A DNA stretch of 64,000 nt, from assembly GCA_000004985.1 (NCBI GenBank), contig GG738922.1. The stretch is one strand, 5' to 3'. The translations under genes and the position numbers were made by a program. Below the pieces are notes generated by a model. That model was not told where the DNA came from and did no database searches. It worked only from the letters and a program-made list of their open reading frames with translations. This stretch comes from Naegleria gruberi (Eukaryota). Positions 1 through 42,109 of this stretch are shown here, one piece after another (positions within the stretch are counted from its first letter, which is position 1; every line of letters starts with the position of its first letter).

Positions 1-346
1 TCATCTTCTTGATGCTATTACTGTTTAAAATATTGTCACGTTTTTACTTAATTATTGGCACAGTTCAACTCATTAAACGAAAATATAGAAGCATGTGAAG
101 AAACAAGGTCCCAGTACACATTACAGATTGTATTATTTGATATATCTAGAAGTTTTAACTGAAATATAGTTTCCGCAAGTAGATACATTTTTATACCAAA
201 TTTGAATTTAAATAATTTTATTTTCTTGAACCAGGTGGTAACAGGTACGAATCTTGCACAATAAATATGTTAGCTTTCCCAGACTTCTGAACTTGAGTTT
301 ATTAATAGAATTTAATAGATCACAAAAAATAATTATTATAAAAAAA

Positions 347-1090
347 ATGTCAGCAACATCTTCATCATCTGATCAACACAATGACACTTCATCATCATCT
401 GATAATAATTTAAATAATAATTTAAATATTTTAAATAATTTAAATATTAAAGAAGAATATAAATTACCTTCATTAATAGAATTTAATAATCCATTATTTA
501 AAGAAATACATTATGGACCAACAGATACATCTAATTGGTTAATACCTAATCGTATTTTAATGTCAGCCTATCCAGGTGATTTAAATTTAGAAAAATCTAA
601 AATTAAAATATCACAATTATTAAAAAGTGGAATTAATTGTTTTGTTTGTTTACAATTAAAAGAAGAATTAAATAGATTTATACCATATAAACCATTAATT
701 GAAGAATATTGTTTATTAAATAATTTAAATATTAATAATTTTACATATTTACATTTAGAAATACCTGATAATTATGTTACAAGTGATGAAAAGGTAATGA
801 ATTTTATAAATCAAGAATTATTACCACAAATTAAAAAAGAAGAAAGTAAATGTTTAATTCATTGTTGGGGTGGACATGGTAGAACAGGTACAATATCAAG
901 TATTTTACTTAGTCACTTGTATCAATTAAATTCACAACAAGCCTTGGAAAGAGTTGCTAAAGTACATTCATGTAGAATTATTAGAAAAAGTAGAGCACCT
1001 CAATCACCTTCTCAATTTAAACAAGTTAAAAGATTATCTTTTGGTTATATTAAAAATAGTGATGATGATAGTGATGATTACGATGAATAA
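347..1090 (+). CDS. Protein-tyrosine / dual-specificity phosphatase-like protein with CX5R P-loop HCWGGHGRTG; Asn-rich N-terminal region
   Basis: ORF 254..1090 begins at TTG; the first in-frame ATG is at 347 in an A-rich context (aaaaaaaATG). The catalytic-loop motif HCWGGHGRTGT is PTEN/DSP-like. Codon usage is TTA/AAT-rich. Confidence 0.7.
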   Translation: MSATSSSSDQHNDTSSSSDNNLNNNLNILNNLNIKEEYKLPSLIEFNNPLFKEIHYGPTDTSNWLIPNRILMSAYPGDLNLEKSKIKISQLLKSGINCFVCLQLKEELNRFIPYKPLIEEYCLLNNLNINNFTYLHLEIPDNYVTSDEKVMNFINQELLPQIKKEESKCLIHCWGGHGRTGTISSILLSHLYQLNSQQALERVAKVHSCRIIRKSRAPQSPSQFKQVKRLSFGYIKNSDDDSDDYDE

Positions 1091-1167
1091 ATTATTTATC
1101 AAAAAAGTAAATTAATCGGAAGAACTTATTAAATTGAATAAATTTTATTAAAATTTAAAATAAAATT

Positions 1168-2412
1168 TTATTTAAACATTAAATCAGTTTTTAAAGTATT
1201 ACTTCTTTTTAATTCAACAGCCTTTTTATAAGGTGGATTAGTAGGAGGTTGAATAACAGGAATACCCAATACTTCATTTGTTCCAATTGAATAAGTTCTA
1301 TCTGAATCAAATCCAGATAAATCACCACATGCTAAAAATGGTACTATATATCTATCTGTTCCTAACATTGGTCCTCCATTATTTTCATTATTTTCATTTA
1401 AATTATTATTATTTTCATTATTTAAATTATTTTCATTATATTGAAAATCTAAAAGTGGATCTACCATTCTAGGAATATAATTTTTAGGTAATTTAAAACC
1501 TTTACAAACAACAAAAGATTCCAATGAAGAATTTCTAGAAGATTTAGGTTTAGCACAATAAACTCTTTCAAAGAAAATAGAACATTGTGAATATAATAAT
1601 GTTATATCTTTGCCTCTAAATATTTTAGATACAAAACTACCTCCCTCTTCTAATACATGACTTGTTATATTTAATGCTGCTAATATTAATTGTAATTGTA
1701 TATATTCATCTATATCATGCATTCCCTATTATTAATTAAATATTAAATATATTATTGTAAAATATTATTAAATATTAAATATTAAATAATATTAAATTGT
1801 AAAGTATTATTAATTAAATATTAAATAATATTATTAAAAACATACAGTAACATCAGGAGCACCATCACATACAACTAATTGAGCCTTTTTACCTTTAAAA
1901 TGATGAACAATTTCCTCTGCAGTTTTTTCACTTGTAATATCTCCTTGAATTTCAATAACTCCTTCCAATGGTGCCATTTCTTGTAAATCAACACTTACTA
2001 TTATAGCATCTTCTTCTTCTATTGTTGTTGATGATGATGTTGTTGTTATTGTATTATTAGTATTATTAGATGATGAATTATCGGATATTATTGTTGTTAT
2101 TAATTTATCATCACTATCATCATTTGTATTTATATTAATTTCATCATCATCATTATTATTTAAATTAATATCATCATTGTTATTGTTATTATTTTGTTCA
2201 TCTAAATGTTTAAATTGTTTTAATAATTTACGTTGTAATACTTGTGACCATGAACCTGGTGCAGCACATAAATCGACTGCTCTCTTAACATTTTCAAATA
2301 TATTAAATTCCTCATCAACTTGTAATAATTTAAAGGCTGATCTTGCTCTCCAACCTTCTTGTTTGGCTTTTCTATAGAATATATCTCTTTTTTCTCTTGA
2401 ATTTCTACCCAT
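1168..2412 (-). CDS. tRNA/rRNA 2'-O-ribose methyltransferase (FtsJ / TRM7 / FTSJ1 family), 2 exons: join(1846..2412,1168..1725)
   Basis: Exon 1 ([36 protein letters not shown]...VCDGAPDVT) and exon 2 ([29 protein letters not shown]...) are together collinear with TRM7/FtsJ. Donor GTATGT at 1845, acceptor aatAG at 1726, 120-nt AT-rich intron. A poly-Asn/Asp insertion sits inside exon 1. Confidence 0.85.
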
Positions 2413-2891
2413 ATTTATTTATTATTATTATTATAATGATGATGATGATGTTTGTTTGAATGTAATGTTGTTATTACTATTAAATATAATACTAGGCTTG
2501 TTATTATTATGTTGATGAAAAAGGCTTGTTGTTATTGTGATGGTGATGATGAAGGTTGGTTCTCGACAAAATTTATTCCAAAAATGCAAAATTTTAATGT
2601 TTTTAAAAAAATTAGCAAAAACATTGTGAAACTAAATGAATGGAATTTAAATTGTTAATTTAAACAAATTGATATTATAATAGTAATTTGATAATGTAAT
2701 GTTAGGATGAAACTATAGTCAACAATATTTTTGACAGTAATAACATGAACAATATATTTAGCCTTCATGTACTTAAAGTTCATGAACAATTTATCCTATC
2801 AATTGAAAAAAAGGATATTAATAATTCACAACATTAAAAAATACATCATCATCATTAACCCATATATTCTCATAATAACAATCACAATAAC

Positions 2892-4541
2892 ATGATGTGC
2901 AACAATTATAATTCAACTTCATCATCATCATCTTGTAAACAAGAACTACAAGAACAAATACAAATACCCAATGATATATGTTATGAAATATTATGTTATT
3001 TAAATTCACAACAAATTATTAAAAGTTGTTTATTAATTTCCAAACAATGGTTAAATGTAATTCTTGAAAGAATTAAAAATTTACAATTTTCATTTTTTAA
3101 AAGAGATGATTCTCCATTTTGGTTTTTAAATAGACAATTATATACTTTTAAATTTAATAACTTTAATAGTTTATTATTTAATAATATATCCTCATTGACT
3201 ATATATGGTAATGAACAATATAATTTATTTTTACCATTATTAAAATATTTTAAAAATTTAAAAATATTAAATGTTAATTGTAATCAATTAAGAGATGAAG
3301 GTACTAAAATTTTAGTTAGTGAAATAGATCAATTAACATGTTTACATTTTTCAAATAATTTTATTACTATAGAAGGAATTAAATATTTAACAAGAATGAA
3401 AAATTTAACATTTTTATCATTAGCATCAAATGCAAATAATTTAACATTAGATTCATTTAAAATATTAAGTGAAAATATGTTAAATTTAAAAATATTAAAT
3501 TTATCTGATAATTATTTATGTCAAGAAGAAGTATTTTACCAAATTAGTAAAATGATAAATATTACTAATTTAGATTTAAGTAGAAATTCTATAAAAGATT
3601 GTGGTATTAAATATATAAGTGAAATGAATGAATTAATATTTTTAAATATAACTAATTGTGAAATTAAAGAAGGTTCAAAATATTTAATCAAATTAAGAAA
3701 ATTAAAAAATTTAATAATTGAACAAAATTGTATTGGAGATGACGGTATTAAATTAATTTCTAACAATTTAAAACAATTAACAAATTTAAATATATATTAT
3801 ACTAATATTACTATAAATGGTGTTAAATATATTTGTAATGAATTAAAAGAATTAAAAGAATTAGATATTAGTAATAATAAAATTGGATTTGAAAGTTTAT
3901 TAGAAATTTCAAAATTAAAAAATTTAACAAGTCTTTCAATTAATTCTATTATTAATAATAATAATAATATTTATAATAATAATAATATTGATTGTAATAA
4001 TAATATTGAAAATATTAAATATATAAGTGAAATGAAACAATTAACATATTTAGATATATCATTTAATGATATAGGTGATGATTATATTAAATTTCTAAAT
4101 AATTTAACAAATTTAACACATCTCTCTATAGCACGTAATAATTTAACACATGAAGGTGTGAAATTTTTAAGTGAAAATATTTTTAAAAATTTAACACATC
4201 TCTCAATTGGATATAATTTAATTGGTATTGAAGGTGTTAAATTAATTACTAATAGTAGTATTGAAAATATGAAATGTTTATATATTAGTAAATCAGGAAT
4301 TGATGATGAAGGTGCTAAATATATTAGTAAATTAACAAATTTAAATAGACTTTTAATTGATGGTAATTATATTACTGAAATTGGTGCTAAATATATTGGT
4401 CAATTGAGTGAATTAACACATCTTAATATTAGTGAAAATTTTATTAAAAATGAAGGAGTTTCTTATTTGAGTAATCTTTGTAAATTAAATACTATTGATA
4501 TTAGAAGAAATGGATTGAGAAAGGAGAAGAAGAATAAATAA
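2892..4541 (+). CDS. F-box-like / leucine-rich-repeat protein (RNI-type LRRs), 549 aa
   Basis: N-terminus IPNDICYEILCYLNSQQIIKSCLLISKQWLNVIL is F-box-like. It is followed by more than 15 LRRs with L..L.L..N.I.D.G motifs typical of ribonuclease-inhibitor-like repeats. ATG at 2892. Confidence 0.8.
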   Translation: MMCNNYNSTSSSSSCKQELQEQIQIPNDICYEILCYLNSQQIIKSCLLISKQWLNVILERIKNLQFSFFKRDDSPFWFLNRQLYTFKFNNFNSLLFNNISSLTIYGNEQYNLFLPLLKYFKNLKILNVNCNQLRDEGTKILVSEIDQLTCLHFSNNFITIEGIKYLTRMKNLTFLSLASNANNLTLDSFKILSENMLNLKILNLSDNYLCQEEVFYQISKMINITNLDLSRNSIKDCGIKYISEMNELIFLNITNCEIKEGSKYLIKLRKLKNLIIEQNCIGDDGIKLISNNLKQLTNLNIYYTNITINGVKYICNELKELKELDISNNKIGFESLLEISKLKNLTSLSINSIINNNNNIYNNNNIDCNNNIENIKYISEMKQLTYLDISFNDIGDDYIKFLNNLTNLTHLSIARNNLTHEGVKFLSENIFKNLTHLSIGYNLIGIEGVKLITNSSIENMKCLYISKSGIDDEGAKYISKLTNLNRLLIDGNYITEIGAKYIGQLSELTHLNISENFIKNEGVSYLSNLCKLNTIDIRRNGLRKEKKNK

Positions 4542-4748
4542 ATAAAATCTTTAGAAAAACCTTAATATTTGTTTAATTGACTCTTATAACCTTAATGTTT
4601 TATAATCTTTGCAAATGAAATTTAAATAATAATAATAAAATTATTGTTTTTTGAAGTATCAAACATTCAATAATTGAAAATGATGAACCTAACCACTAAT
4701 AACAATTAATAATCTGTTAATTCATGTGTGTGAATAAACTAAAAAAAA

Positions 4749-6062
4749 ATGAAAGAAATTCCCTTCACATCTATTGAAGGTATAATAGTAGGACATTGTA
4801 ATGAAGGTAATAGTGGATGTACAGTTGTGTTGAGTGAAAACTCCGAAGGATTTGGATGTGGTGTTGATTGTAGAGGAGGTGCAACTGGTACAAGAGAAAC
4901 TGATTTATTAAAACCTGGAATGTTAGTTGAAAAAATACATGGTGTATGTTTTATGTATATATTTTCTTAATATATTTAATATTTAATTAATATATTTAAT
5001 TTATTAAAAAAGTGTGTAATTTCAGGAGGAAGTGCATTTGGATTAGATGCATCTTCAGGAGTAATGAAATATTTTAGAGAAAAAGGAATTGGATATCATA
5101 CAGATATATTAAATGTTCCAATTGTTTGTCAAGCTGTTTTATATGATTTACAAATGTTAAATAAGAAAGATAATACATCATTATCATTATCATCCAATGA
5201 TAATAATAATAATAATACATCATCAACATCTAATAATCAAAATAATTCAATAATTGATTTACCAAATTATTTTGAATTAGGATATAAAGCATGTAAAAAT
5301 CCAATATCTAATGATATAAATGGAAATATAGGAGCAGGAAATGGATCTACAATTGGTAAATTATTAGGAGCTAAACATTCAATGAAAGGTGGATTAGGAT
5401 GTTATGCAATTCAAGTTGATAATGAATTAAAAATTGGTGCAATGGTTGCTGTTAATTGTTTTGGTGATGTTTATGAAAATGGAAATTTAATTGCTGGATG
5501 TTATAAAATTAATGATGTTGATTCAACATCTGATTCAACAACAACTAATACATCATTATTATCTGATTCAACTATTAGTACAAATAATACTGATGATACA
5601 TCATTTAATTCTAATAATTTTAATAATTCTTCAAATGATAAATTAGTTGAATTTCTTGATAGTGAAAAGATATTAATTAAAGAATATTTACAATCTAAAG
5701 AAGAAGCCAATGCATTTGAATTATCTAAAAGAAAGCATGATATAACAAATACAACTATTGGTATTGTTGTTTGTAATGGAATATTAGATAAATCTCAATT
5801 GAATAGAATTGCAATGATGGCGCATGATGGATATGCACGTTCAATGAAACCATCTCATACTTTATATGATGGTGATACTATTTTTGTAATCTCAACTGGT
5901 ACTATTAATGTTAAACCTCCTACTAATTTAATTGGTACTTTGGCTGCACAAGTTGTTGAAAAGGCAGTTGTTAATGGTGTTAAACATGCTCAATCCATGA
6001 ATGATTTCATTTCTTTTAATGATTTAAATAATATTATTTCTACTAATAATAGTAATAAATAA
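4749..6062 (+). CDS. Peptidase S58 / DmpA (L-aminopeptidase D-Ala-esterase/amidase) family protein, 2 exons: join(4749..4941,5026..6062)
   Basis: Exon 1 IEGIIVGHCNEGNSGCTVVLSE...GVDCRGGATGTRETDLLKPGMLVEKIH plus exon 2 GGSAFGLDASSGVMKYFREKGIGYHTDILNVPIVCQAVLYDL matches the DmpA/S58 consensus. Donor GTGTATGT, acceptor tttcAG, 84-nt intron in phase 1. Asn/Ser/Thr-rich insertions present. Confidence 0.8.
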
Positions 6063-6100
6063 TAAACTCTTAGTTGTTAATAATTTGATTCAATGATTTT

Positions 6101-7147
6101 TTAATCTATTTCAATGATGGTTATATTGTTAAGATGATTATTAGTAGTGTTGTTAATGTTCATCTTTTTAGTAATGTTAGTGTTGATAGTAGTGGTATTG
6201 AGTAGATTAAGAGTGTTATGTTTCAATATAGTTGGTAATGCTACAAGCTCATTGTCATGATGTTGTAATGTGGATTGATTGAGTTTAGAATGAATTGGTT
6301 CTTCCTCAATAACATAATAAGGAATTTCATCTTTGACTATTAGAGGTGTTGGTGATGTATGAGTCATTTCTTCACTGTTAATGTTAGTTGTATCAAAATC
6401 TTCATTATCTTCATCATCTGATTCCGATTGACCAATTAAAAGAAATAATGAATGTGTTGATGGCTTTTCAGATTGTGATATCACAATATTATTAGTAGTA
6501 TCACCATTATTGATAATGACATTAGTAGTGTTAGTAGTATTATTTGTGTTTTGTGAATAATCCAAACTATCTTCACTAGTTGATTCCTGAGTTGTATCAT
6601 TACTCTCTGTAAAGAGTGCACTCAATATTGATGAGGAAAATGATGGTACAATATCACCATCACAACCTAACAAGCCTAATGGTGGTGGAAGTGGTGATGA
6701 AGGTGGTGGTGCTTTCTCTTCTTCTTGACTTGAACCACTAATTAATGCATTATGTGGTGGTAGTGGTGTAGTTATGAATGATTTGGAAGGCTTTAATTTG
6801 TGATGTAAAGTACTATTATTCTTTCGTTTCTTTCTTGGTATTTCAATTAATTCTTCTTCATCATCAGTTTCATAATCCTTATAATTGATTCTTCTTAATC
6901 CCTTTCGTTTCGGATGTTTTCTATTGGATTCGGATTCTAATTCTTCATCTTCTTCCTCATTGGATGAATATTCTTCATCATCATAATCTGAAGAACTACT
7001 ACTATCATCATCAGAAGTGGTGTCAAAATCGTCTTGTCTTATTTGTGGTAATGTATCTTTCCTAACCCAATGATCAGAGCCTTCATTTGATGTTACTACT
7101 GCTACCTTTTTACTTGTTGTCTGACTTCTGGTTACTCTTTGAGACAT
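6101..7147 (-). CDS. Hypothetical acidic Ser/Asp/Glu-rich low-complexity protein, 348 aa
   Basis: Long ORF with ATG at 7147 and Dictyostelium-like codon usage. It has poly-acidic and poly-Ser tracts with basic KR patches suggestive of nuclear localisation. No recognisable domain. Confidence 0.6.
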   Translation of the reverse strand: MSQRVTRSQTTSKKVAVVTSNEGSDHWVRKDTLPQIRQDDFDTTSDDDSSSSSDYDDEEYSSNEEEDEELESESNRKHPKRKGLRRINYKDYETDDEEELIEIPRKKRKNNSTLHHKLKPSKSFITTPLPPHNALISGSSQEEEKAPPPSSPLPPPLGLLGCDGDIVPSFSSSILSALFTESNDTTQESTSEDSLDYSQNTNNTTNTTNVIINNGDTTNNIVISQSEKPSTHSLFLLIGQSESDDEDNEDFDTTNINSEEMTHTSPTPLIVKDEIPYYVIEEEPIHSKLNQSTLQHHDNELVALPTILKHNTLNLLNTTTINTNITKKMNINNTTNNHLNNITIIEID

Positions 7148-7308
7148 TTTATTTGTTAAGGTTTATTGTAGGTAATAAAATACACAGACTTTGTTAGCCT
7201 GTGACTAATTGTAGCCTTGTAAAATCACAGCCTTGATTGAAGGATGAATGTTCTTGTGAATGATGGAAATTATTGCAATCAGTGCCATCCATCAATTCTA
7301 AAAAAAAA

Positions 7309-10300
7309 ATGAGTATTAATAATAGTATTGTTACTACACCCACTAAATCATCAGCATCATCACCAACTGATGGTACATCATTAACACCATCTCCATCATC
7401 ATTATCAACACCTCGGAATAATGTTAGTAGTAGTAGTATTACAACACCATCATCTACAACATCATCAACTTTATCAACTCCATCCACTCCATCTTCATCT
7501 TCTAGAATGACAACAATAGTTTCATCAGCTCCTATTATTAAAAAACTACCAAAACATTTACAAGATACCTTAAAATCTGGAACTAATATATCATCACTCT
7601 CTGATTGTATTAAAGAATTAATAGAAAATGCACTTGATGCACAAGCCACTAATATTGAAATTCAATTACAGGGTAAAGAATGTATCATTATTAAAGATAA
7701 TGGTCATGGTATTCATCAGGATAATTTTGAAACTCTATGTAAACGTTATTATACTCATAAATTTATGAATCATTTTAATACTTTTAATGATAATGATAAA
7801 AATGTAAATAATACCACTGATAATTTAAATAATAATGAATCATCATCTAATAATCATTCTCATAATAATAATGAAAATAATAATTATTACTATGGATATA
7901 AAGGAGAAGCATTAAATAGTATATGTAATTTAAGTAAACAAGTACATATTAAAACTAAATATGGAGATGAATCTGAATTAGGAACATATTTAATATATGA
8001 TACAAGAGGTGAAATTGTATCTAAAACATTAATTAGAATGAATAGAGGTACAATAATAACAATTCAAGATTTATTTTCAACCATTCCAGTTAGAAAGAAA
8101 TGTTTTGTTAATCAATTTGATTCACAATTTACAGATTTAAAAGAAATGTTAAAACAATTAACTTTAATACATTTTAATATTAGATTTACTATTAAGGAAG
8201 GTGAAAAAATATCATTTATTAAAAATGGAAATATTAAAAATTTAAAACAATCATTAAATACTATATTTGGAATACCTAATTTATATGATCATTTATATTT
8301 ATATTCAAATATAATATTAAATGAAGAAAATGAAAATAATATATTTTTAAATAATTTAAATTTATTTAATAATGAATTTTTATTACAAATTCATGTTCCA
8401 AATTATTCAAGTATTGTAAAATCAAATCAAATTGATTCAAATGAAAAGGAAATTAACAAATTTTTTACCACAACTAAACCTTTTATTTATGTTAATAATA
8501 GAATGATTACTAAATATGAAGAAATTCAAAAAACAATGAAAAATATTTTTTCAAATTTTNNNNNNNNNNNNNNNNNNNNNNNNNNNNNNNNNNNNNNNNN
8601 NNNNNNNNNNNNNNNNNNNNNNNNNNNNNNNNNNNNNNNNNNNNNNNNNNNNNNNNNNNNNNNNNNNNNNNNNNNNNNNNNNNNNNNNNNNNNNNNNNNN
8701 NNNNNNNNNNNNNNNNNNNNNNNNNNNNNNNNNNNNNNNNNNNNNNNNNNNNNNNNNNNNNNNNNNNNNNNNNNNNNNNNNNNNNNNNNNNNNNNNNNNN
8801 NNNNNNNNNNNNNNNNNNNNNNNNNNNNNNNNNNNNNNNNNNNNNNNNNNNNNNNNNNNNNNNNNNNNNNNNNNTAATGATTATTCTGATCAAGTTATTG
8901 ATAATCAATTAAATAATACAAGTTTAATTTCTAATAATAATAATACAAGTAAATTAATTTCTAATAATACAAGTTTAATTTCTAATAATAGTAGTAGTAG
9001 TATTATTACACAATCATCACCTTCTTCTTCTATTATGAATAATAGCAATAATAATAATGAAAGTGGTAATCATTATACATCTAATTATAGAACACCATCA
9101 CCTCAATCTAAAAGCCTTATTACCACTCTTCATAATAGTAATCATTCTAATAATACAACAACACCATCACCACCTATATTTAATAAGAGAAGTGTTATTG
9201 TAAATAATAGTGGTGGTAGTAGTGGAAGTGGTAGTGGTGGTTATAGATCTACTATTAGTGGAGGTAGTAATAGTACATCTAATTATAGTACTAATAATAA
9301 TAATAATAATAGTAGTAGAGGTAGACATATAGAATTAGATGATTCATTATTGGATGCTATGGATGATTTAATAGGTGTACCTATTTTACCAAAAAATAAT
9401 AATAATAATTCAACAATAGATTCATCTATTAATAATAATATTACTAATAATAATGGAAATAAATCTAATAATAATAATATGAATTTAAGTGATGATGAAG
9501 ATACAATAATTAAAACAGGTTTAAAAAATACATCTAACAAACAAATATTAATAACTAATAATAATAATAGCAATGATAATAATAGTACTATTAAAACAAT
9601 AGTACAACCCATTGATATAAATAAATATAAAAGTACAACACCTAATAATTCTAAAAAAAGAAAAACAATTCAAACTAAATTAACATTAGATTCATCTCAA
9701 CAACAACAACAACAATATAAATATAAAAATATAGAAATTGAAAATATTAATGAAGAATTAATATTTAAAAAACGTAAAATTTATTCAAATAATGAAAAGA
9801 AAAATTTAAAATTTGATAATGAAAATTATAAAATTAGTAAAAATGATATATTTACAAATATAGAAATTATAGGAGAATTAGAAAATAAAATAGGAATAAT
9901 ATATCATTTAAAATATTTTAAAATATATTATATTAATTTAAATATAATTAAAAGTGATTGTATTTTTAATAATTTAATGAATACATATTCATTTAAAGAT
10001 TCAATTATACCTTTACAACAACCAATTAATTTATTATTATGTAAAAATGAATTATCAAATAAGAATTTAAAATCAATTTGTGTTAAACCTGAATATCAAA
10101 ATATTTTTGAAATGAATGGTTTTAAAATTGAATTTGAAAAACAACCTTTACCAAATGAACCTACTAGAAAGAAAATTACAAAATTAAATTTAATTGGAAT
10201 TATTAATAATAATTCTTTTGGAACAAGAGAACATTATAATTATGGTTTACAAGATTTTATTGAAATTTTACAAAAAATTGAAACTTTTGAAAAGGATTTA

Positions 10301-10663
10301 TTAGAAAATGAAATTATTAAGAATATTTTAAAGGAAAAGAAGGCAACTAAATCTGAATTAATTTCGCAAGCATCAATTCAATTTAGACCCAATACAATGA
10401 TTGAATATTTTAAGAATACTGCTAAACATACTTCTTCATCTTTAGGTACAGATAGAAAATCAATTCATGAAATTTTAATGGACTTGAAAACAACTTGCTT
10501 CTTGAAATTACATCAATTTATGAGTAGACATACAGATGAAAATTTTGATGAAATTATTAATGATATTACTGGTTATTTTCATCCAATGGATTTGGGAGGT
10601 ACTAGTAGTGATACTAGTGCTGATAATAATGGAGATGTACCAAATATTGAAGAAATGATTTAA
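7309..10663 (+). CDS. MutL-family DNA mismatch repair protein (MLH/PMS-like), interrupted by scaffold gap
   Basis: The N-terminal GHKL ATPase motifs IKELIENALDAQATNIEIQL and IIKDNGHGI match MutL. ORF 7273..8877 starts at TTG; the first in-frame ATG is at 7309. The reading frame stays open on both sides of the N-run and continues to 10663. Extensive Asn-rich insertions. Confidence 0.75.
8570..8874. other. Assembly gap (305 N)
   Basis: Run of N characters inside the MutL-like CDS. Confidence 0.99.
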
Positions 10664-13600
10664 TCTTTAATAAATTGAATAGTCTTTTGCTTTGGAACTT
10701 GTGGTGATGGATTACTTGGTCTGAGTACTGGTAATGGATTGAATTTGATAATTTCCTGTGATGAAGAGCTTATCGATGAGGAAGGAGCTGAAAATTTGAG
10801 AATTGATTTTCTTATCATGTTCGTATTATTGGATTGTGCAGCTATTGTTGTTGATTGAGATGGAGAGAATAATTTTGGATTAAAATCATCTGCAATTAAA
10901 TCCTTTCTTGTTGATTCATTCATATCAGCCCATTTCAATGAATTATTCTGATTATCTCTTTTCAATAATTTTAATTTGGAATTATAACTTGGTGAACTAA
11001 CTTCTGTTGGGAATTCAAAATCGTCAAATTTACGTTTTCCTAATTGATTTAATTGATTCATTAATGTATTATTTCTAGTTGTTGGTGTATTAATTAATGA
11101 TTGATTTGAAATTGAACTAATATTTGACTTGGTTGGTGTTATAGAACTTTCACTTATTGAACTCAATGAATTTAATAATGGAACAGGTGAAATAAAAGAT
11201 GAATCTAAATTTGATGATGTTTTCATTGGTGTTTGTTCTCTCTTTGAAATTCTACTCTTAGGTGAAAGTAATAAAGATGAGGATGATAAATCATTTGATT
11301 GTTTTTGTGTTCTAGTTGTTGTTGAACTATTAATCATCATTCTATTTGAAACTAATTTAGAAATACTTGGTGATAAAATAAAACTATCTTCCTTTCTAGT
11401 ATTACGAGTATTAAATGATGGTTTTGAAAGAGGTGATGGTGAAAACATTGAAAATAAACCCAATTCTTTTGTTGATGGAATTGTTTTAGGTGTTCCAATT
11501 AAATCTAATTTTGAAATATCAAATTCAGAATTTCTTCTAGTAATTACTTTTGGTGAATTAGTACTACTAATATCATTCATATTATTATTATTTGTAATAA
11601 TAGTATTATTATTATCAATAGTTGATTTCTTTTGAATCCAATCATTTTGAATTTGTTCAATTGCTAAATCTTGTTGATTTAAAATTTCAATTTGATTCTT
11701 AATTTCATCATCTGTAATTTTATCATCAATATCAAGTAAAATCTTTTGAGTTTCCTCTTTTTGTTTTTTAATTAAAGGTTCAAAATCTAAAACTCTACAT
11801 GTAGAAGTATCAAATAAATCTTTTTCATCCACTTGTTCATCATCTTGTACATCTTCCACTTGTTTTAATTCTTCATTGAAATATTTTAATAAATTATTAT
11901 TACTTTCAAACTCATTTGATGATGCTATATTACTAATACTACTAATATCTGTTAATATATTATTATTATTATTATCAATATTATTATTATTAGCAGTATT
12001 ATTATTAGAATTATTATTAGTATTATTCAAATCATTCTTATGATTCATACTATTATCAATATTTACAACCATTGATGACTCTATAATACTATCATCACCC
12101 AATTCTTCTAATACATCTTCTGTTGTTGTTGTAATTGCTTGTGCTACTTCGCCTGTACTAATATCATCAATTACATCAAGAATATTATCCTCCTCTTCTT
12201 CTTCTTTCTCTGATTGTTTCGTTTGACTATTATCACTTAAAGATGATGAATCTGATAATGGTGATTCAGATATGTTTGCTTCAATATCTTCATTTGTTGC
12301 ACTTGTTATTTCCTTAATGATTTCATCAATTTCATCTGTTTGATCATTCTCTTCTTCAGAGAATTCTTCAATAATCTTTGGTTCTTGTTCTTCAATAATA
12401 TTTTCAAGTTCATTGTCTTCCTCTGAAGATTCCTCAATAACCTTTGGTTCCTGTTCTACAATGATATCATCATCACTTTCTTGTTGTTCCGATTTAGATT
12501 CAACAATTTGTTCAGTAGTTGTCTCTGGAGTTTCATCTTCACTATCAACCATTTCAGGAGTTTCATCAGTTTCATTTTCAATAACAACTTGCTCTTCTGC
12601 TACTTGTTCTTCATTATCAACAACTTGCCCTTCAACTACTTGTTCTTCAGTTGTAGAGTGAGCTATTACTTCTTCTTCTACTACGACCGATGGAGGCGAT
12701 AATATTGGAATTTCTTTATCCACTTCATTATTATTATCATTAACAATATTAGATGATGATTCAATTGATTCTTCGTCTTTTTCAATTGTTGTTGTTGTAG
12801 GTGATGTTACAGTAGTATTAATATTACTATCAATATTAATAATTTTACTTTCTTTAGCAAATTCTTCTTCTATTGTTGGTATTGTTGATTCACTTTCATA
12901 TTCTTCTCTGTTTCTCTTTAATGAATTTTCAGATTCAATAATGGTAGTATTATTATTATTATTAGATTCATTATCATCATCAAATTTAATTTCATTCAAT
13001 TCATCTTCATTTTTCACTATATCAATATTATTATTTACTACTACTTGTTCATTCAACTCCTCTATAATCACATGATCAGTATTTTCTACTTGTTCTTCTT
13101 GTTTCTGAATTAATTCTTGTTTTAATAAATTTAAATTTAATTTATAATCCTTTTCAATTAAATATTTTCTCATCATTGATTGTAAAGTTAAAATTGTATT
13201 TAAATCATTTTTTAAATTTACTTGTTCCATTTTACTTTTTAATAAAGATTGAATTATTAAAGTTGATTCTTTACAATCATTTAAATATTTTCTATTCGAA
13301 TGTCCTTCAATTAAATTTTCTAAATTATTTAATAATTTTAATTTTTCATTCTTTTCTAAATTAGTAAATAATCTAATATGATGTCCATTAAATATTGATT
13401 GTAATGTTGTTATACTTTCATTTAATTGTTTTCTGTTATGTAAAACTAATTGATTTCTATATAAGGATTGAATATTTTCTGAAAATTCTAATTTTGAATT
13501 AAATTCCTTTTTAATTAAATAATTTCTAATTAATGATTGTAAAATAATAATATTATTATTAATATTATTAAAATTAGTATTTTCTATTAAATTTCTAAAT

Positions 13601-14558
13601 TTAGATTGTAATATTATTACATTGAATTTTTCATCGTCTAAATTTTTACGTTCCAAATAATTTTTACATAAATTTTGTAATGAAATTAAATGTTCAACTT
13701 GTTTATCCATTTCATGAATTGAATTATATTGTCTAATTATAGATTGAATACTTGTTATATTAATTTCCTTAGAATTTTCCAAACTTGTTGATTCCGATAC
13801 TGATTCTACCATATTACTAGCATTATTATTTATAGTAGTTTCAATTGTAGTTGGTGTTGATGATATTTCTGTTGTATTAATTAATTCTTCATCATTTGAA
13901 GGCTTTGAATTTTCATTTTCAATTTTTTCTTCCGAATTTTCATTACTTGAATCATTAATTAATTGTTCATCGCTTGAAGGCTTTGAAATTTCCTTATTTT
14001 CTTCTTGATTAGATGATTCCTGTTGTTGATTATTTTCATCTTGTTCTTGCTTAGACGATGATTCATCTTGTTGTTTGTTGATGGTTCTAATTCTGTTTGT
14101 TCTTCATGTTCAGAACTATTTTCATCTTCCTGTTTAGATGAAGAAGAGGAAGCCTTTGGTTGTTCTACTTTTTTTCTTCTCCTTGATGATTGAAGCCTAG
14201 ATCTAACAGGTGTTTTAATAATCTTTTCTTCTTCCTCTGGTTCGGTATTTGCAGTCAAGTCTTCATTTACACTTTTAGATTGATTATTCTTCGTTTTATC
14301 AATTTTCTTACGTTTTTGACGTTCCTTTACTGGTGTTTTTAAAATGTTTGAAATTAATGATGAGGCTGATGATAATGTATTAGAAGAGGAGGCATTTGTT
14401 GTTGTACTATTAGATGTTTCATCATTGGTTGTTGATGTGGTTGAGGAAGAAGAAGTAGCATTTGCCTCGGTATTTGCTGTTGTTGTATTTGATGACCTTG
14501 TATCATCGGAAGGTGATGAAGGAGATAATAATTTTTGTCTTCTAGTTTGTACTGGCAT
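10660..14558 (-). CDS. IQ-motif-containing, acidic low-complexity protein; two ORFs (14558..13959 and 13812..10660) probably one gene disrupted by a frameshift
   Basis: ORF 10660..13812 carries at least five IQ-like calmodulin-binding motifs (ILQSKFRNLIE, LQSLIRNYLIKKEF, LQSMMRKYLIEKDY) followed by long acidic/Ser-rich tracts. The frame that contains Met-13812 stays open upstream to about 14100 with the same acidic repeat style (SKPSSDEQLINDSSNENSEEKIENE...). It overlaps the 3' out-of-frame tail of ORF 13959..14558. Confidence 0.5.
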
Positions 14559-14930: not shown

Positions 14931-14943
14931 ATAAAAAAGTAGA
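14931..14943 (-). terminator. Pol III oligo-T terminator downstream of the tRNA
   Basis: TTTTTT run 1-8 nt after the discriminator base on the tRNA strand. Confidence 0.5.
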
Positions 14944-15032
14944 AGGCGACTGAGGGAATTGAACCCTCGACCCTCAGTTATCTCAGCATTACTGCCTACA
15001 AGACTGATGCACTGCCACTGTGCTAAGCCGCC
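14944..15032 (-). tRNA. tRNA gene, anticodon UGU (Thr) with a putative 17-nt intron 3' of position 37
   Basis: The reverse complement folds as GGCGGCU/AGUCGCC acceptor stem (one G-U), GCAC/GUGC D-stem, UCAGU/ACUGA anticodon stem with loop CUUGUA[intron GGCAGUAAUGCUGAGAU]A, variable loop GGGUC, and T-arm GAGGG-UUCAAUU-CCCUC. A T6 run (TCTACTTTTTTAT) follows immediately and serves as a Pol III terminator. Confidence 0.6.
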
Positions 15033-15154
15033 TTACGATTATGATTTTTAAAAATACAATACTGTAATATTCCTGTGCGTTAAGTAATGTGTCACCAAAA
15101 TAATAACACAATTAATATTAATATTATTATGGCGCCAAAAAGAAATAAAAATAC

Positions 15155-15358
15155 ATGACTGCAAGAATTGATGAAACAACAAATAGGTTGGCTGCTACTC
15201 TTGATCATGTTCAATTTAATAATCATCTCAATAATGATATATTCCGATTAATTATTTCCTTTCTAGACATTAAGGATTTATGTCGATTCGAACAAGTAAG
15301 CAAGAATAACCTTCCAATTTGTAAAGTGTGCTCAGAAGATTCTGACTTTTGGAATTAA
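15155..15358 (+). CDS. Small F-box-domain ORF (67 aa)
   Basis: DIFRLIISFLDIKDLCRFEQVSKNNLPICKVCSEDSDFW is a complete F-box-like motif. ATG at 15155, TAA at 15356. The ORF lies 5 nt upstream of the GTPase ATG. Confidence 0.5.
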   Translation: MTARIDETTNRLAATLDHVQFNNHLNNDIFRLIISFLDIKDLCRFEQVSKNNLPICKVCSEDSDFWN

Positions 15359-15363
15359 ATACA

Positions 15364-16246
15364 ATGGTTTCGAAATCTTACAATTATAAAATTACTGAAA
15401 CAGATCGTCAACAAATTGGAATGCTCTTGAAGAAAACTGAAGATTTTAAGAAAACATTGAATCTCGCCTTTAAAATTGTAAATGACATTATTGAACGTAA
15501 TTTCAGACAGAGAATGGAAGAATTGGAAGACAGTATACTAAAATATAACAAAAAAGCTGCAAAGAATCAATTCATGACTAGGGATGAATTACTTAGTGTG
15601 GATATTTCAAATTGTGAAATACCGTTAGATGAAAAGCCTTTCAAAATTATTGTAATGGGTTAGTTTGTAAAATTTAACAATTAATGATTAATTTTCAATA
15701 GGGGATGGAAATACTGGAAAAACATGTTTATTGGAACCTTTATTGAAGGGTCAATTCATACAAGATTATGCACCTACTCTTTTCAAAAAAGAGTTTGCTG
15801 ATTTTAATTGTGGAAATTTTCAAGTTACTTATACTGATATTGTAACAGACATTGATTTCCCAAATAATAGATCTCAATTCTATCCAAATACTAAGGCATT
15901 CATTGCAATGTTTAATGTAATGGAAGATTACACGCTCAGTAATTTATTCACACGATGGATTCCAGAAGCAAGACAATATTGTCCAGAAGCAGCAATTATT
16001 GTTGTTGCTTCCAAAGTTGATTTAAGACATGATTTGAGTGCAGTGGAGACATTGAGGAAAAACCATTTGGAAAAACCAATTTCATTCGATCAGGGAGAAA
16101 GAGCATCTACAATTGCCAACTGTTCGACCTATATTGAAACAAGTTCCCTGCAAAACATTGGATTAGGTGATTTGACAGAGTTGGCACTAAAGGCCTATTT
16201 TGTAAATATTTCAAAGGAAAGAAAGAAAAATTGTTTTTTACAATGA
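15364..16246 (+). CDS. Atypical Rho-family small GTPase with N-terminal extension and C-terminal CAAX-like CFLQ; join(15364..15658,15702..16246)
   Basis: Exon 1 ends ...KIIVMG. Donor GTTAGT, acceptor caatAG, 43-nt intron in phase 1. Exon 2 starts GDGNTGKTCLLEPL (P-loop). The Rho-like regions TRWIPEARQYCPEAAIIVVASKVDLRHD and PISFDQGERAS are present. The DTAGQE switch-II motif is replaced by TDIVTDIDF. Confidence 0.7.
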
Positions 16247-16266: not shown

Positions 16267-17394
16267 TTACCATCTTCTTTTATATCTTCTATCAACCATT
16301 TTAGATGAAATTGAGGTATAGATTTTGTGTTTAGAAGATAATGAATAGAATTGAATAACAGGTTGAGGTTCAGGAATATCACAAAAGTCAACTATTAATG
16401 ATTTCTTTGGAATTTGTTTAAGTAATGATGATAAGTCTGCACTTCCATCTTCCAAATAATTGTCATCAGACAAATCCAATCTCAACGAATCCAATCCATG
16501 TATTATACCAGAATTGACAATTTTCTCAACTGAGAAGAATGGAAAGTTCAGTAACTCTAAATGTTCCAACTTTGGAAAGTAGGTCCTATTCACATGATCC
16601 AACAATTTTACGTCTATTACATCATCCATAAATTGAACCTCTGATCTGAGAATTAGCAATCTTACATTAGGAAATACAGTGTTCAATTCTTGCATTTCAT
16701 TGAATGAAATATCCAGAATTAGAATATCCTCATTTACATGACTAACATTTGATTCATGTCCATTTAGACCTATTTTCAACACAAAATCACAAGCTTGATC
16801 GATATTTTTTGTTGAATTCACAAGTAATTGATAACTCTTCACTAACCACTTTGTAAATAAATCATCTTCATCTTGATCAACACAATTCAAGAAATTGAAC
16901 TTTTGTTCAATAAATTCTTCTAAATCAACAAGAGTTTCATTCAATACTTGATCGATTTCTGGATAATCAAATAATTCATCCTTTCCAATCAGCTCTTTTA
17001 AAGATCTTTCAATTCCAATCTCTTTCCATAAAACCAATTTACCAACTCTAACCATCATATTCTTCTCATATCCAACTAAATCTCCATCATGTACATGATC
17101 CATACTCTTTTGATTATATCCATTCAATAAGATGTGAAGTTGTTTATCGGCAGCAAAGAGAGCATTTCTCCAAAATGTGGCGTAACCTTGAAATCTAATA
17201 CCACAACAATTTACCAAATTCTTCATGACCAATAAATTGTCAAGACTTGGAATTGTCAAGTTTTCATTGTTGTTTTGAATAAAATTCTTCCACCATCCTA
17301 TGGTTTTTGTTTTGGAATGGAAATCTCCGATAAGAAACCTGAAAATTTCTTGCAAAATATCATCTGACAGTAAGGTGAAATGGTGTGGAGACAT
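16267..17394 (-). CDS. F-box domain protein, 375 aa
   Basis: N-terminus LLSDDILQEIFRFLIGDFHSKTKTIGWW is F-box-like. ATG at 17394. Single exon. Confidence 0.7.
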   Translation of the reverse strand: MSPHHFTLLSDDILQEIFRFLIGDFHSKTKTIGWWKNFIQNNNENLTIPSLDNLLVMKNLVNCCGIRFQGYATFWRNALFAADKQLHILLNGYNQKSMDHVHDGDLVGYEKNMMVRVGKLVLWKEIGIERSLKELIGKDELFDYPEIDQVLNETLVDLEEFIEQKFNFLNCVDQDEDDLFTKWLVKSYQLLVNSTKNIDQACDFVLKIGLNGHESNVSHVNEDILILDISFNEMQELNTVFPNVRLLILRSEVQFMDDVIDVKLLDHVNRTYFPKLEHLELLNFPFFSVEKIVNSGIIHGLDSLRLDLSDDNYLEDGSADLSSLLKQIPKKSLIVDFCDIPEPQPVIQFYSLSSKHKIYTSISSKMVDRRYKRRW

Positions 17395-40960: not shown

Positions 40961-42109
40961 ATGTCGATAAGTGGGGATGGGAAAAGAATACGGATGGATG
41001 AATTGGCTCCATCATTGAAGAAGATGAAAACAAATGCATCAAAAGCTATAGCTTCTCAATTGTGTCATGATGAAATATTAAATATTTTACAATTTTTAAA
41101 TGTTAAACAAATTGTGAAATGTTTATTAATCAATACGAATTGGAATATTATAGGATCATCAAATATTATATGGAAACCATTATATAATCACTTTTTCATG
41201 AATGAATTTTTCAAGTGGGATCAACAATTGCAAGATATTTCCAAACTCGAAAGTAATACTTTCCTTCCCGAACTTAAATTGCATTCTCACAGGAAGAAAG
41301 AAGATTCAGATATTAAGGATTTGAAAAAAGAAACCAATAATTTATTGGAAAAATTCAAGGATAAGAATGGAAATGTTAATTATTATCAATTATTTCAATT
41401 TGATTGTCATTATCCTCAAATTAATGAATCAAATGTTGATATTGTTGATCAGTTGAGGAATGTTGATTCCATTTCTAATATTGAAACTTTGAAACAATTA
41501 ATCAAGCATATTTGGAAAGATAAAGATAAGTCTGAATGGTACAGAATTATTGGAACATCTGAAATGATTCTTGACAAGTCGAACAAATTGTGGAAAAGAA
41601 AGCCAATTCTCACCTTTATAGCCATTACCTTATTAGTATTATTCAATAAGAAGAGAATTAATTATGTAGACGGAATTATTGTGCTGACCAATGTAAAAAA
41701 CAGTTATACACAAGAGCAAATTTGCGAAATGCCAATTTTGGCTTTTTGTAAAATGATTTCCTCAAACGAGGAAAATATTTCCAAATTATGCTCCAAACAC
41801 AATTATAAGAAAATGACTTTGGGTGCATTTCTAAAAGTTTCTGATAAACAAACAGGTAAGATTTCTTCCAGACATCCACCCAAGCCAGATATAAATCTAA
41901 CAAATCTCAAACTCTGTTTCAGATCAAAGAATGACGAAACATTTATTGCAGTACAATCAGTTTCTGATAACATGAATCCTGATGTGTTAGAGTTTGCTCC
42001 CTCGTTTTTTAATGCTGGAGGAAGTTTACAATGTGTTCAAGAGGTGAAAGCTGTTTTGGTTGAGAATGGAATCAGGTTTGAAATTAAGAATGGAGCTAAA
42101 TATTGTTAA
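40961..42109 (+). CDS. F-box domain protein, 382 aa
   Basis: N-terminus LCHDEILNILQFLNVKQIVKCLLINTNWNIIGSSNIIWKPLY is F-box-like. Confidence 0.7.
   Translation: MSISGDGKRIRMDELAPSLKKMKTNASKAIASQLCHDEILNILQFLNVKQIVKCLLINTNWNIIGSSNIIWKPLYNHFFMNEFFKWDQQLQDISKLESNTFLPELKLHSHRKKEDSDIKDLKKETNNLLEKFKDKNGNVNYYQLFQFDCHYPQINESNVDIVDQLRNVDSISNIETLKQLIKHIWKDKDKSEWYRIIGTSEMILDKSNKLWKRKPILTFIAITLLVLFNKKRINYVDGIIVLTNVKNSYTQEQICEMPILAFCKMISSNEENISKLCSKHNYKKMTLGAFLKVSDKQTGKISSRHPPKPDINLTNLKLCFRSKNDETFIAVQSVSDNMNPDVLEFAPSFFNAGGSLQCVQEVKAVLVENGIRFEIKNGAKYC

What the first reader, a model, noticed from the sequence alone, without database searches (positions are those of the whole stretch)
15155..16246. F-box mini-ORF abutting an atypical Rho GTPase (possible F-box-GTPase unit)
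A complete F-box-like ORF of 67 aa stops 5 nt before the ATG of a Rho-family GTPase. That GTPase has a 98-aa non-GTPase N-terminal extension, has lost the DTAGQE switch-II motif (probably GTPase-deficient), and ends in a CAAX-like CFLQ. An alternative splice (GTAAAG at 15321 to cAG at 15403, phase-compatible) would fuse the two. Either way the arrangement suggests a coupled or fused F-box plus Rho module, reminiscent of RhoBTB-type ubiquitin-ligase-linked atypical Rho proteins.
Basis: partly seen in the sequence, partly recalled or inferred. Interest (0 to 1): 0.55.

Follow-up and report, generated by a model that had tools for sequence, protein, structure and literature searches.

The report
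Frameshift-severed F-box–Rac gene in Naegleria
The small F-box reading frame and the odd Rho-type GTPase next to it are two halves of one Naegleria gruberi gene of an already described F-box–Rac fusion family, cut apart here by a 28-base deletion, so the locus is most likely a recently broken gene copy and not a new coupled system.

Summary
A 67-codon ORF scores as an F-box above Pfam's own cut-off. It ends 5 nt before the ATG of a two-exon Rho-family GTPase that has lost switch II and ends in CFLQ.

The window is Naegleria gruberi. A 94%-identical contig from a close relative carries 28 extra bases at the junction, bounded by an 8-bp direct repeat (TTTTGGAA). These bases join the two ORFs into one frame and encode a motif (FW-K-x-Y-Y-x-x-K-I-x-x-L) that is conserved in intact F-box–linker–Rho–CAAX proteins of N. 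gruberi, N. lovaniensis and N. fowleri. The window therefore holds a frameshifting deletion. The "ATG of the GTPase" is an internal Met, and the "98-aa extension" is the family's conserved linker.

The relative's copy has its own nonsense codon and a 13-bp frameshift in the GTPase part, so the gene appears to be decaying in both lineages.

The proposed rescuing splice is only one of 26 phase-compatible GT..AG pairs, and it would delete the best-conserved part of the F-box. TAA readthrough cannot fuse the frames.

F-box–Rho fusions in Naegleria are already published (Herman et al. 2021, supplement). That paper lists this gene as a plain 279-aa "Rac". Interest is low to moderate.

The parts
15155..15358 (+). 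Severed 5' part of the gene: F-box ORF of 67 codons, ending in a TAA created by the frameshift.
   Evidence: ORF listed. Pfam F-box E=1.2e-5, above the gathering score. It aligns over its whole length with the F-box of Naegleria F-box-Rho paralogs.
15347..15354 (+). Deletion scar: a single copy of the 8-bp repeat TTTTGGAA. The relative L001 has TTTTGGAA + 20 nt + TTTTGGAA, which is 28 nt more and encodes KIYYETKI(L).
   Evidence: Pairwise DNA alignment, indel list and junction sequences printed.
15356..15358 (+). TAA stop that comes into frame only because of the 28-nt deletion.
15364..15658 (+). Exon-1 remainder. It encodes the family's conserved linker (motifs DFKKxL and F-x-T-R-D/E-E-L/I-L) and GTPase strand beta-1 (KIIVMG). 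The ATG at 15364 is an internal Met of the ancestral protein.
   Evidence: In L001 this stretch is read continuously from the F-box. The linker aligns with paralogs.
15659..15701 (+). 43-nt spliceosomal intron (GTTAGT...AATAG, phase 1) inside the P-loop glycine codon.
   Evidence: Splicing restores GDGNTGKT and the Ras-family match. GC is 0.16. The intron is identical in L001. The published curated model uses the same splice.
15702..16246 (+). Exon 2: Rho/Rac-type GTPase domain with Rho insert, polybasic stretch, CAAX box CFLQ (16232-16243) and a TGA stop.
   Evidence: The PDB search returns only Rho-family proteins at E about 1e-25. Pfam Ras match.
15836..15853 (+). Degenerate switch II, D-I-V-T-D-I in place of D-T-A-G-Q-E (G60T and Q61D in Cdc42 numbering).
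   Evidence: HMMER alignment to Cdc42. The change is shared with L001. Most paralogs keep DTAGQ or DTAGP.
16067..16079 (+). 13 nt in the Rho-insert region that are deleted in the relative L001, causing a frameshift there. They are intact in the window.

Best explanation
The locus is one gene of the Naegleria-specific F-box-Rac family: an N-terminal F-box, a helical linker of about 100 aa, a Rho-family GTPase and a CAAX box.

Shown:
- Ancestrally it encoded a single protein of about 358 aa.
- In the N. gruberi reference sequence, a 28-bp deletion between two copies of TTTTGGAA shifts the frame two codons after the F-box's conserved Trp and creates the TAA.
- What remains is a 67-codon F-box stub, 5 nt of spacer, and an internal Met that now heads a 279-aa Rac-only ORF.

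Inferred from domain identity, not shown:
- The intact protein would have acted as a Skp1/Cul1 (SCF)-binding adaptor.
- Its 'substrate-recognition' module would be a farnesylated, switch-II-defective (GTPase-dead or pseudo-GTPase) Rac domain. This would bring ubiquitin-ligase activity to membranes or Rac partners, or control its own turnover.

Inferred for the present copy:
- It can no longer make that fusion.
- On an mRNA starting upstream of 15155, the F-box stub would be translated first. The Rac ORF would depend on inefficient reinitiation, and the early stop lies upstream of an intron.
- Together with two independent disabling lesions in the sister lineage's copy, this makes a recently inactivated, decaying gene (birth-and-death turnover of an expanded family) the most likely state.
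For: - Organism: N. gruberi, from exact matches of neighbouring proteins.
- Relative contig L001 is collinear at 94% identity. It has 28 extra nt bounded by an 8-bp direct repeat, giving one ORF, MTTR...SEDSHFWKIYYETKILELNTMVSKS....
- The extra residues align with the conserved FW-(K/Q/R)-x-x-Y-x-x-x-x-x-(L/F) of paralogs from N. lovaniensis, N. fowleri, N. gruberi and environmental contigs.
- The reconstructed 358-aa protein gives single BLASTP alignments from F-box to CAAX with these paralogs: 29-33% identity over 345-363 aligned columns, E 1e-37 to 1e-56.
- Paralogs P0028 and P0157 come from metagenome collections (JGI/IMG and ENA) and are each a single 326-aa protein. If such collections call plain ORFs, as is usual, the fusion there needs no splicing model; the caller itself was not checked.
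- L001 carries TTA to TGA just before beta-1 and a 13-nt frameshifting deletion in the Rho insert. That makes three disabling lesions in 1.1 kb between two alleles, against none in the adjacent 1.1-kb gene.
- dN/dS is about 0.55 for this gene and 0.16 for the neighbour. Fisher p = 0.06.
- Published curation lists this exact 279-aa model as a newly created 'Rac' model. The same supplement describes F-box-Rho fusions and disrupted copies in related F-box-GTPase clades.
Against: - The window's Rac ORF is fully open (279 codons, intron intact, CAAX intact), and so is the 67-codon stub. At about 2% divergence this is uninformative, but it also does not prove decay.
- The gene has fewer indels (2 per 1.09 kb) than flanking intergenic DNA (about 10 per kb), so it was constrained for much of the divergence time.
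- The dN/dS contrast rests on about 20 substitutions per gene and is not significant.
- No transcript, read-level or protein data could be examined.
- The deletion could be confined to one haplotype.
- The SCF-adaptor mechanism is inferred from domain identity only. The AlphaFold model of a paralog was too poor to use.
Confidence: 0.75

Rival explanations
1. Functional gene fission. After the deletion, the 279-aa linker-Rac-CAAX protein is still made, from an internal transcription start or by reinitiation, and works as a stand-alone atypical Rac. The F-box stub is either an inert relic acting as an upstream ORF or a small Skp1-binding peptide.
For: - The Rac ORF, its intron and its CAAX box are intact.
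- Herman et al. curated exactly this 279-aa model and did not flag it as a pseudogene.
- Indel density is lower than in intergenic DNA.
Against: - The sister lineage has destroyed precisely the GTPase part with a nonsense codon and a 13-nt frameshift, so that part is dispensable there.
- The first AUG of any transcript starting in the 120-nt promoter region is the F-box AUG. A 67-codon upstream ORF with 5-nt spacing is a poor context for reinitiation (general knowledge of eukaryotic translation).
- No independent promoter-like AT-rich gap exists between the two ORFs.
- ORF intactness is expected by chance at this divergence, since only about 5% of substitutions would create a stop.
Confidence: 0.17
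2. One reading: an intron (GTAAAG at 15321 to AG at 15403, or a similar one) is spliced out and fuses the F-box to the Rac in frame, so the gene still makes a fusion protein.
For: The splice is phase-compatible and gives an open 331-aa frame. The indel between the two alleles would then lie inside an intron and be harmless.
Against: - 26 different GT..AG pairs are equally phase-compatible.
- All have exon-like GC of 0.28-0.32, against 0.16 for the real intron.
- The removed segment encodes CKVCSEDSDFW plus the start of the linker. This aligns with the most conserved F-box segment of all paralogs (C-Q-L-x-E-E-D-x-F-W-K).
- In the relative the same stretch is an uninterrupted ORF collinear with paralogs, so no intron is needed there.
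- The curated model does not use this splice.
Confidence: 0.03
3. Assembly artefact or single-haplotype variant: the organism actually carries an intact fused 358-aa allele, and the reference sequence misrepresents it.
For: - Only one reference sequence exists for this strain in the data available here.
- The deletion lies between short direct repeats.
- The closest relative has the intact junction.
Against: - A clean 28-bp loss is not a typical base-calling error.
- The independent curators worked from the same contig and found no F-box in frame.
- No second N. gruberi allele could be found.
- Even if heterozygous, the deletion would be a real null allele.
Confidence: 0.05

Closest known systems
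Naegleria F-box-Rac/Rho fusion proteins (Herman et al. 2021, BMC Biol, PMC8296547, Additional file 4 Suppl. Material 4 and Table S8). Examples: N. gruberi XP_002678060.1 and ACER01000078.1 model, N. lovaniensis XP_044542084.1 (358 aa), N. fowleri XP_044568862.1 (Kelch-F-box-Rho).
   Same: - F-box signature: L-N-D-D-I-F-R-x-I-L-S-F-L ... V-S-K ... S-E-D-x-F-W-K-x-Y-Y.
- Linker motifs: (D/N)FKKxL and F-x-T-R-(D/E)-E-(I/L)-L.
- A Rho domain with Rho insert, and a polybasic stretch plus CAAX ending in Q.
- The reconstructed protein is collinear with them from F-box to C-terminus.
- In Table S8 the gene sits directly next to F-box-Rac entries.
   Different: - Here the reading frame is broken by a 28-bp deletion, so F-box and Rac are separate ORFs.
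- Switch II is more degenerate than in most members.
- No one-to-one orthologue exists in N. fowleri or anywhere in 1.8 billion representative proteins apart from the near-identical relative.
- Table S8 lists it without an F-box and not as a pseudogene.
RhoBTB (atypical Rho GTPases fused to BTB domains; Cul3 adaptors).
   Same: The concept is the same: a divergent, probably non-cycling Rho domain is covalently tied to a cullin-RING-ligase adaptor domain. Naegleria also has true RhoBTB genes.
   Different: - The adaptor is an F-box (Skp1/Cul1 type), not BTB (Cul3 type).
- It lies N-terminal, not C-terminal, to the GTPase.
- Pfam finds no BTB domain.
- It has a CAAX box, which RhoBTB lacks (own knowledge).
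TbFRP, the FYVE-F-box-GTPase of Euglenozoa (PMC3593210).
   Same: An F-box placed N-terminal to a Ras-superfamily GTPase in a discoban protist. The authors likewise infer a link to ubiquitylation and turnover.
   Different: TbFRP has a FYVE domain, and its GTPase is closest to Rab18. The authors found no orthologue in N. gruberi. The two are independent fusions.
GTPase-deficient Rho proteins (Rnd1-3, RhoH).
   Same: Loss of the catalytic Gln61 equivalent. Rnd3/RhoE is among the best PDB matches.
   Different: Rnd and RhoH keep Gly60 of DxxG (own knowledge). Here Gly60 is also replaced (Thr), and most of switch II is rewritten, so even GTP-dependent switching is doubtful.

Membership tests
Rho family of small GTPases | P-loop GxxxxGK[ST]. 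| tested here: met
   GDGNTGKT spans the 15658|15702 splice.
Rho family of small GTPases | Rho insert helix between beta-5 and alpha-4. | tested here: met
   DLRHDLSAVETLRKNHLEKPIS aligns with Cdc42 [21 protein letters not shown] with only a one-residue gap.
Rho family of small GTPases | Best sequence matches are Rho, Rac or Cdc42 rather than Ras, Rab or Arf. | tested here: met
   All 60 best PDB sequences are Rho family, E about 1e-25. Curated as 'Rac' by Herman et al..
Rho family of small GTPases | Switch II D-x-x-G-Q-E (G60, Q61) needed for GTP sensing and hydrolysis. | tested here: not met
   D-I-V-T-D-I at 15836-15853. By sequence it is a Rho-fold protein, probably not a working GTPase switch.
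Rho family of small GTPases | C-terminal CAAX prenylation box preceded by basic residues. | tested here: met
   KERKKN-CFLQ*. Actual prenylation is not testable here.
F-box proteins (SCF substrate receptors) | F-box motif recognised by the family profile above its curated threshold. | tested here: met
   PF00646 scores 25.5 bits against a cut-off of 20.5, E=1.2e-5. tblastn with an N. fowleri F-box gives E=2e-6.
F-box proteins (SCF substrate receptors) | F-box joined in one polypeptide to a target-binding module. | tested here: not met
   A TAA at 15356 and a frame change separate it from the Rac domain in the window. The junction is intact in relative L001.
F-box proteins (SCF substrate receptors) | Binds Skp1. 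| not testable with these tools
   The AlphaFold model of paralog P0088 had mean pLDDT 46. No interaction test was possible.
Naegleria F-box-Rac fusion family (Herman et al. 2021) | Collinear F-box, conserved linker, Rho domain and CAAX. | tested here: met
   The order, the motifs and full-length alignments after restoring the 28 nt all fit.
Naegleria F-box-Rac fusion family (Herman et al. 2021) | Single uninterrupted coding sequence. | tested here: not met
   A 28-bp deletion shifts the frame. The locus is therefore filed as a disrupted member.
RhoBTB | Tandem BTB domains C-terminal to the Rho domain. | tested here: not met
   Pfam finds no BTB match, and the protein ends at the CAAX box directly after the GTPase domain.
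TbFRP (FYVE-F-box-GTPase) | N-terminal FYVE domain and a Rab-like GTPase. | tested here: not met
   No FYVE match. The GTPase is Rho-type.

The most novel reading that the evidence does not exclude
The split is not decay but a working arrangement. One transcript would yield a free 67-aa F-box micro-protein and, by termination-reinitiation across the 5-nt gap, a farnesylated pseudo-Rac. The two would either still cooperate non-covalently or act as a Skp1 decoy plus an independent membrane scaffold. This would be a natural, very recent fission of a GTPase-coupled SCF adaptor caught in the act.
Probability: 0.06. Interest if true: 0.55.

Novelty: new member of a known kind. Interest (0 to 1): 0.25.

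Why it matters
The result corrects a curated gene model. The N. gruberi 'Rac' on ACER01000717.1 is a frameshifted F-box-Rac, not a plain Rac with an unexplained N-terminal extension.

With the sister allele, it gives a dated snapshot of birth-and-death turnover in Naegleria's greatly expanded F-box-GTPase families. There are three independent disabling lesions within about 2% sequence divergence, and two of them are deletions between short direct repeats.

It also shows that the family's linker and the FWK-x-YY extension of the F-box are conserved coding features.

It does not reveal a new mechanism. The broader idea of GTPase-coupled ubiquitination in Naegleria is already published and remains experimentally untested.

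Tried and rejected
Exon 2 alone was used instead.
- Word-indexed homology searches were nearly blind to this divergent family. They returned 1 hit and 4 hits with the family profile.
- A scan of JGI metagenome contigs with the relative's fused ORF found no further allele, so only two alleles could be compared.
- An AlphaFold2 model of intact paralog P0088 from a 12-row alignment had mean pLDDT 46. It showed only a plausible secondary-structure pattern: three short helices, two long linker helices, then alternating strands and helices. It was not used for fold searching.
- The bacterial promoter/terminator scan is irrelevant for a eukaryote and did not exceed shuffled controls.
- TAA readthrough is rejected: the frames differ, and 23 codons lead to the next stop.
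- Programmed -1 frameshifting is rejected. The only overlap of open frames is 15346-15355 (CTTTTGGAAT), which holds no X-XXY-YYZ slippery heptamer (read from the sequence).
- The GTAAGC at 15296 is the best-looking donor in the ORF, but it lies before the conserved V-S-K of the F-box, and its in-phase acceptors delete even more conserved sequence.
- An insertion in the relative, as opposed to a deletion here, is rejected because the 28 nt encode residues conserved in paralogs.

Full report
**What is there.** On the + strand, 15155-15358 is a 67-codon ATG-to-TAA ORF. Residues 24-51 match the Pfam F-box model above its gathering score (25.5 against 20.5 bits, E=1.2e-5). Five bases after the TAA, an ATG at 15364 opens a second ORF in a different frame. 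That ORF runs to 15658. A 43-nt, very AT-rich intron follows (15659-15701, GTTAGT...AATAG, GC 0.16), and then exon 2 (15702-16246). The spliced 279-aa product matches Pfam Ras (E=1.3e-19). Against all PDB sequences, its 60 best matches are exclusively Rho-family proteins (Cdc42, Rac1, RhoA, Rnd3, RhoD; E about 1e-25), and the Rho insert aligns with only a one-residue gap. The P-loop (GDGNTGKT), Thr35 and the G4 Lys/Asp (SKVD) are kept. Switch II reads D-I-V-T-D-I where Cdc42 has D-T-A-G-Q-E. The protein ends in KERKKN-CFLQ.

**Where it comes from.** Two neighbouring ORFs are identical to annotated Naegleria gruberi proteins (XP_002669816.1 and XP_002669782.1) on a 209,908-bp scaffold. The window is eukaryotic, gene-dense and about 32% GC.

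**The decisive comparison.** The only close relative of the GTPase in 5.8 billion clustered proteins is a 166-aa ORF from an ENA metagenome contig (P0001 on L001). L001 is collinear with the window at 94% identity over 4.3 kb. In L001 the F-box ORF does not stop. It reads ...CKVCSEDSHFWKIYYETKILELNTMVSKSYNYK..., running straight into what the window presents as the N-terminal extension of the GTPase. The base-level alignment shows why. L001 has TTTTGGAA-AATTTATTATGAAACCAAGA-TTTTGGAA, while the window has a single TTTTGGAA (15347-15354). That is a 28-nt difference bounded by an 8-bp direct repeat, it shifts the frame, and it brings a TAA into frame two codons after the Trp.

**Polarity of the indel.** An exhaustive HMMER search with exon 2 against 1.84 billion representative proteins found no closer orthologue. 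It did recover proteins of 326-358 aa, and Kelch-containing ones of 731-734 aa, from N. lovaniensis, N. fowleri and environmental contigs. These have an N-terminal F-box, a linker of about 100 aa, a Rho domain and a CAAX box. In the family alignments, the residues encoded by L001's extra 28 nt (K-I-Y-Y-E-T-K-I-L) fall on a conserved block, FW-(K/Q/R)-x-x-Y-x-x-x-x-x-(L/F). The protein reconstructed by restoring the 28 nt gives single BLASTP alignments from F-box to C-terminus with these paralogs and with N. gruberi F-box-Rac proteins from the literature (29-33% identity, E 1e-37 to 1e-56). The 28 nt are therefore ancestral coding sequence, and the window carries a deletion. It follows that the "ATG of the GTPase" is an internal methionine. 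The "98-aa non-GTPase extension" is the family's conserved linker, with shared motifs (D/N)FKKxL and F-x-T-R-(D/E)-E-(I/L)-L. The 5-nt abutment is a mutational scar, not an operon-like coupling.

**State of the gene.** The relative's copy is broken as well, at other places. A TTA-to-TGA change lies ten codons before the exon-1 end, and a 13-nt deletion between imperfect direct repeats in the Rho insert throws the C-terminal third out of frame. That makes three independent disabling lesions in 1.1 kb between two alleles that differ by only 2% in substitutions. The adjacent 1.1-kb gene has none. Nei-Gojobori counts give dN/dS of about 0.55 for this gene (14.5 non-synonymous and 6.5 synonymous changes, plus one nonsense) against 0.16 for the neighbour (8 and 12). 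This is suggestive but not significant (Fisher p = 0.06). The gene has fewer indels than intergenic DNA (2 against about 10 per kb), so any loss of constraint is recent. Open reading frames cannot settle the question at this divergence, because only about 5% of possible substitutions would create a stop. I therefore rate [quoted passage not shown] as most likely. A still-functional Rac-only gene is the main rival.

- The 15321-15403 splice is phase-compatible and yields an open 331-aa frame.
- An enumeration finds 26 GT..AG pairs that do the same. All have exon-like GC (0.28-0.32) and all delete the conserved C-x-L-x-(S/E)-E-D-x-(F/Y)-W-K segment.
- In the relative the same stretch is plain ORF.
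- TAA readthrough stays in the wrong frame and stops after 23 codons.
- The 10-nt overlap of open frames contains no slippery heptamer.

**What is known.** Herman et al. 2021 (PMC8296547) re-annotated the Ras superfamily of N. gruberi and N. fowleri. Their supplement makes several relevant statements. The Rho family has more than 80 genes in N. gruberi. [quoted passage not shown] This points "to GTPase-dependent ubiquitination". [quoted passage not shown] Their Table S8 contains this very gene. It is a newly created model on ACER01000717.1, annotated "Rac", with a sequence identical to my 279-aa model. The pseudogene and additional-domain columns are empty, and the entry sits directly after F-box-Rac entries. 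At least eleven N. gruberi Rac entries in that part of the table are marked F-box. A different, independent F-box-GTPase fusion (TbFRP: FYVE-F-box-Rab-like) is known in Euglenozoa and has no N. gruberi orthologue.

**Mechanism.**
- Shown: domain identities, their ancestral fusion, the deletion, and the degenerate switch II. The switch II change is shared by both alleles and so predates the lesions. Some intact N. gruberi paralogs show a similar change: DTAIHE, DTSGAD and IDLSDIG.
- Inferred from established knowledge of F-box proteins and Rho GTPases: the intact protein would dock to Skp1-Cul1 through the F-box. It would attach to membranes through a farnesylated CAAX (X = Q) plus a basic patch. 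It would use a non-cycling Rac-like domain as the recognition or localisation module. This is functionally analogous to RhoBTB-Cul3 but built from different parts.
- Not shown: Skp1 binding, nucleotide binding, prenylation, expression. An AlphaFold model of an intact paralog was too uncertain to add anything (pLDDT 46).

**Verdict.** The unit is real and is already described as a family. The particular arrangement in this window is a frameshift scar in a probably decaying copy. The result is useful as an annotation correction and as an example of rapid turnover in an expanded gene family, but it is not a new kind of system.

Noticed in passing
window 14942-15033 (-), intron at 14980-14996; L001 1329-1403 (-): The tRNA-Thr(UGU) gene 120 nt upstream of the F-box ATG is 92 nt long in the window and 75 nt in the 94%-identical relative. 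The 17-nt difference sits at the canonical 37/38 intron position, so this is a tRNA intron presence/absence difference between very close Naegleria lineages.
   Followed up: partly
window 16267-17394 (-): The convergent neighbour NAEGRDRAFT_75184 (375 aa, 'predicted protein') starts with LLSDDILQEIFRFL, which looks F-box-like by eye. Pfam reports nothing at E<=1. It is under clear purifying selection against the relative (dN/dS 0.16, no indels).
   Followed up: partly
window 40961-42109 (+), hit at 41051-41191: Another ORF (382 aa) has a weak tblastn match (E=0.003) to the F-box of the environmental F-box-Rho protein P0028. It is possibly a further F-box protein in the window.
   Followed up: no
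window 1-14000 versus 14001-64000: The first 14 kb are markedly more AT-rich (GC 0.15-0.29 per 2 kb) than the rest (0.29-0.38). The cause was not examined.
   Followed up: no
window 13959-14558 (-) and L001 2-958 (-): The upstream Ser/Thr/Asn-rich low-complexity ORF differs from the relative by several 3-nt and 9-nt indels and one 20-nt indel (14059-14078). The ENA gene call there is 319 aa against 199 aa here, so the gene structure (an intron?) is unresolved.
   Followed up: no
N. gruberi paralogs from Table S8 of PMC8296547 (not in the window): Intact F-box-Rac paralogs also have degenerate switch II: XP_002678060.1 DTAIHE, ACER01000078.1 model DTSGAD, ACER01000199.1 model IDLSDIG. Loss of the catalytic Gly/Gln is therefore recurrent in this family and not in itself a sign of pseudogenisation.
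   Followed up: partly
window 16067-16092: The Rho-insert region contains an imperfect tandem repeat, AAAAACCATTTGG followed by AAAAACCAATTTC. The relative has lost one unit (13 nt). Like the 28-nt event, this fits slippage between short direct repeats as the mechanism of gene death at this locus.
   Followed up: yes
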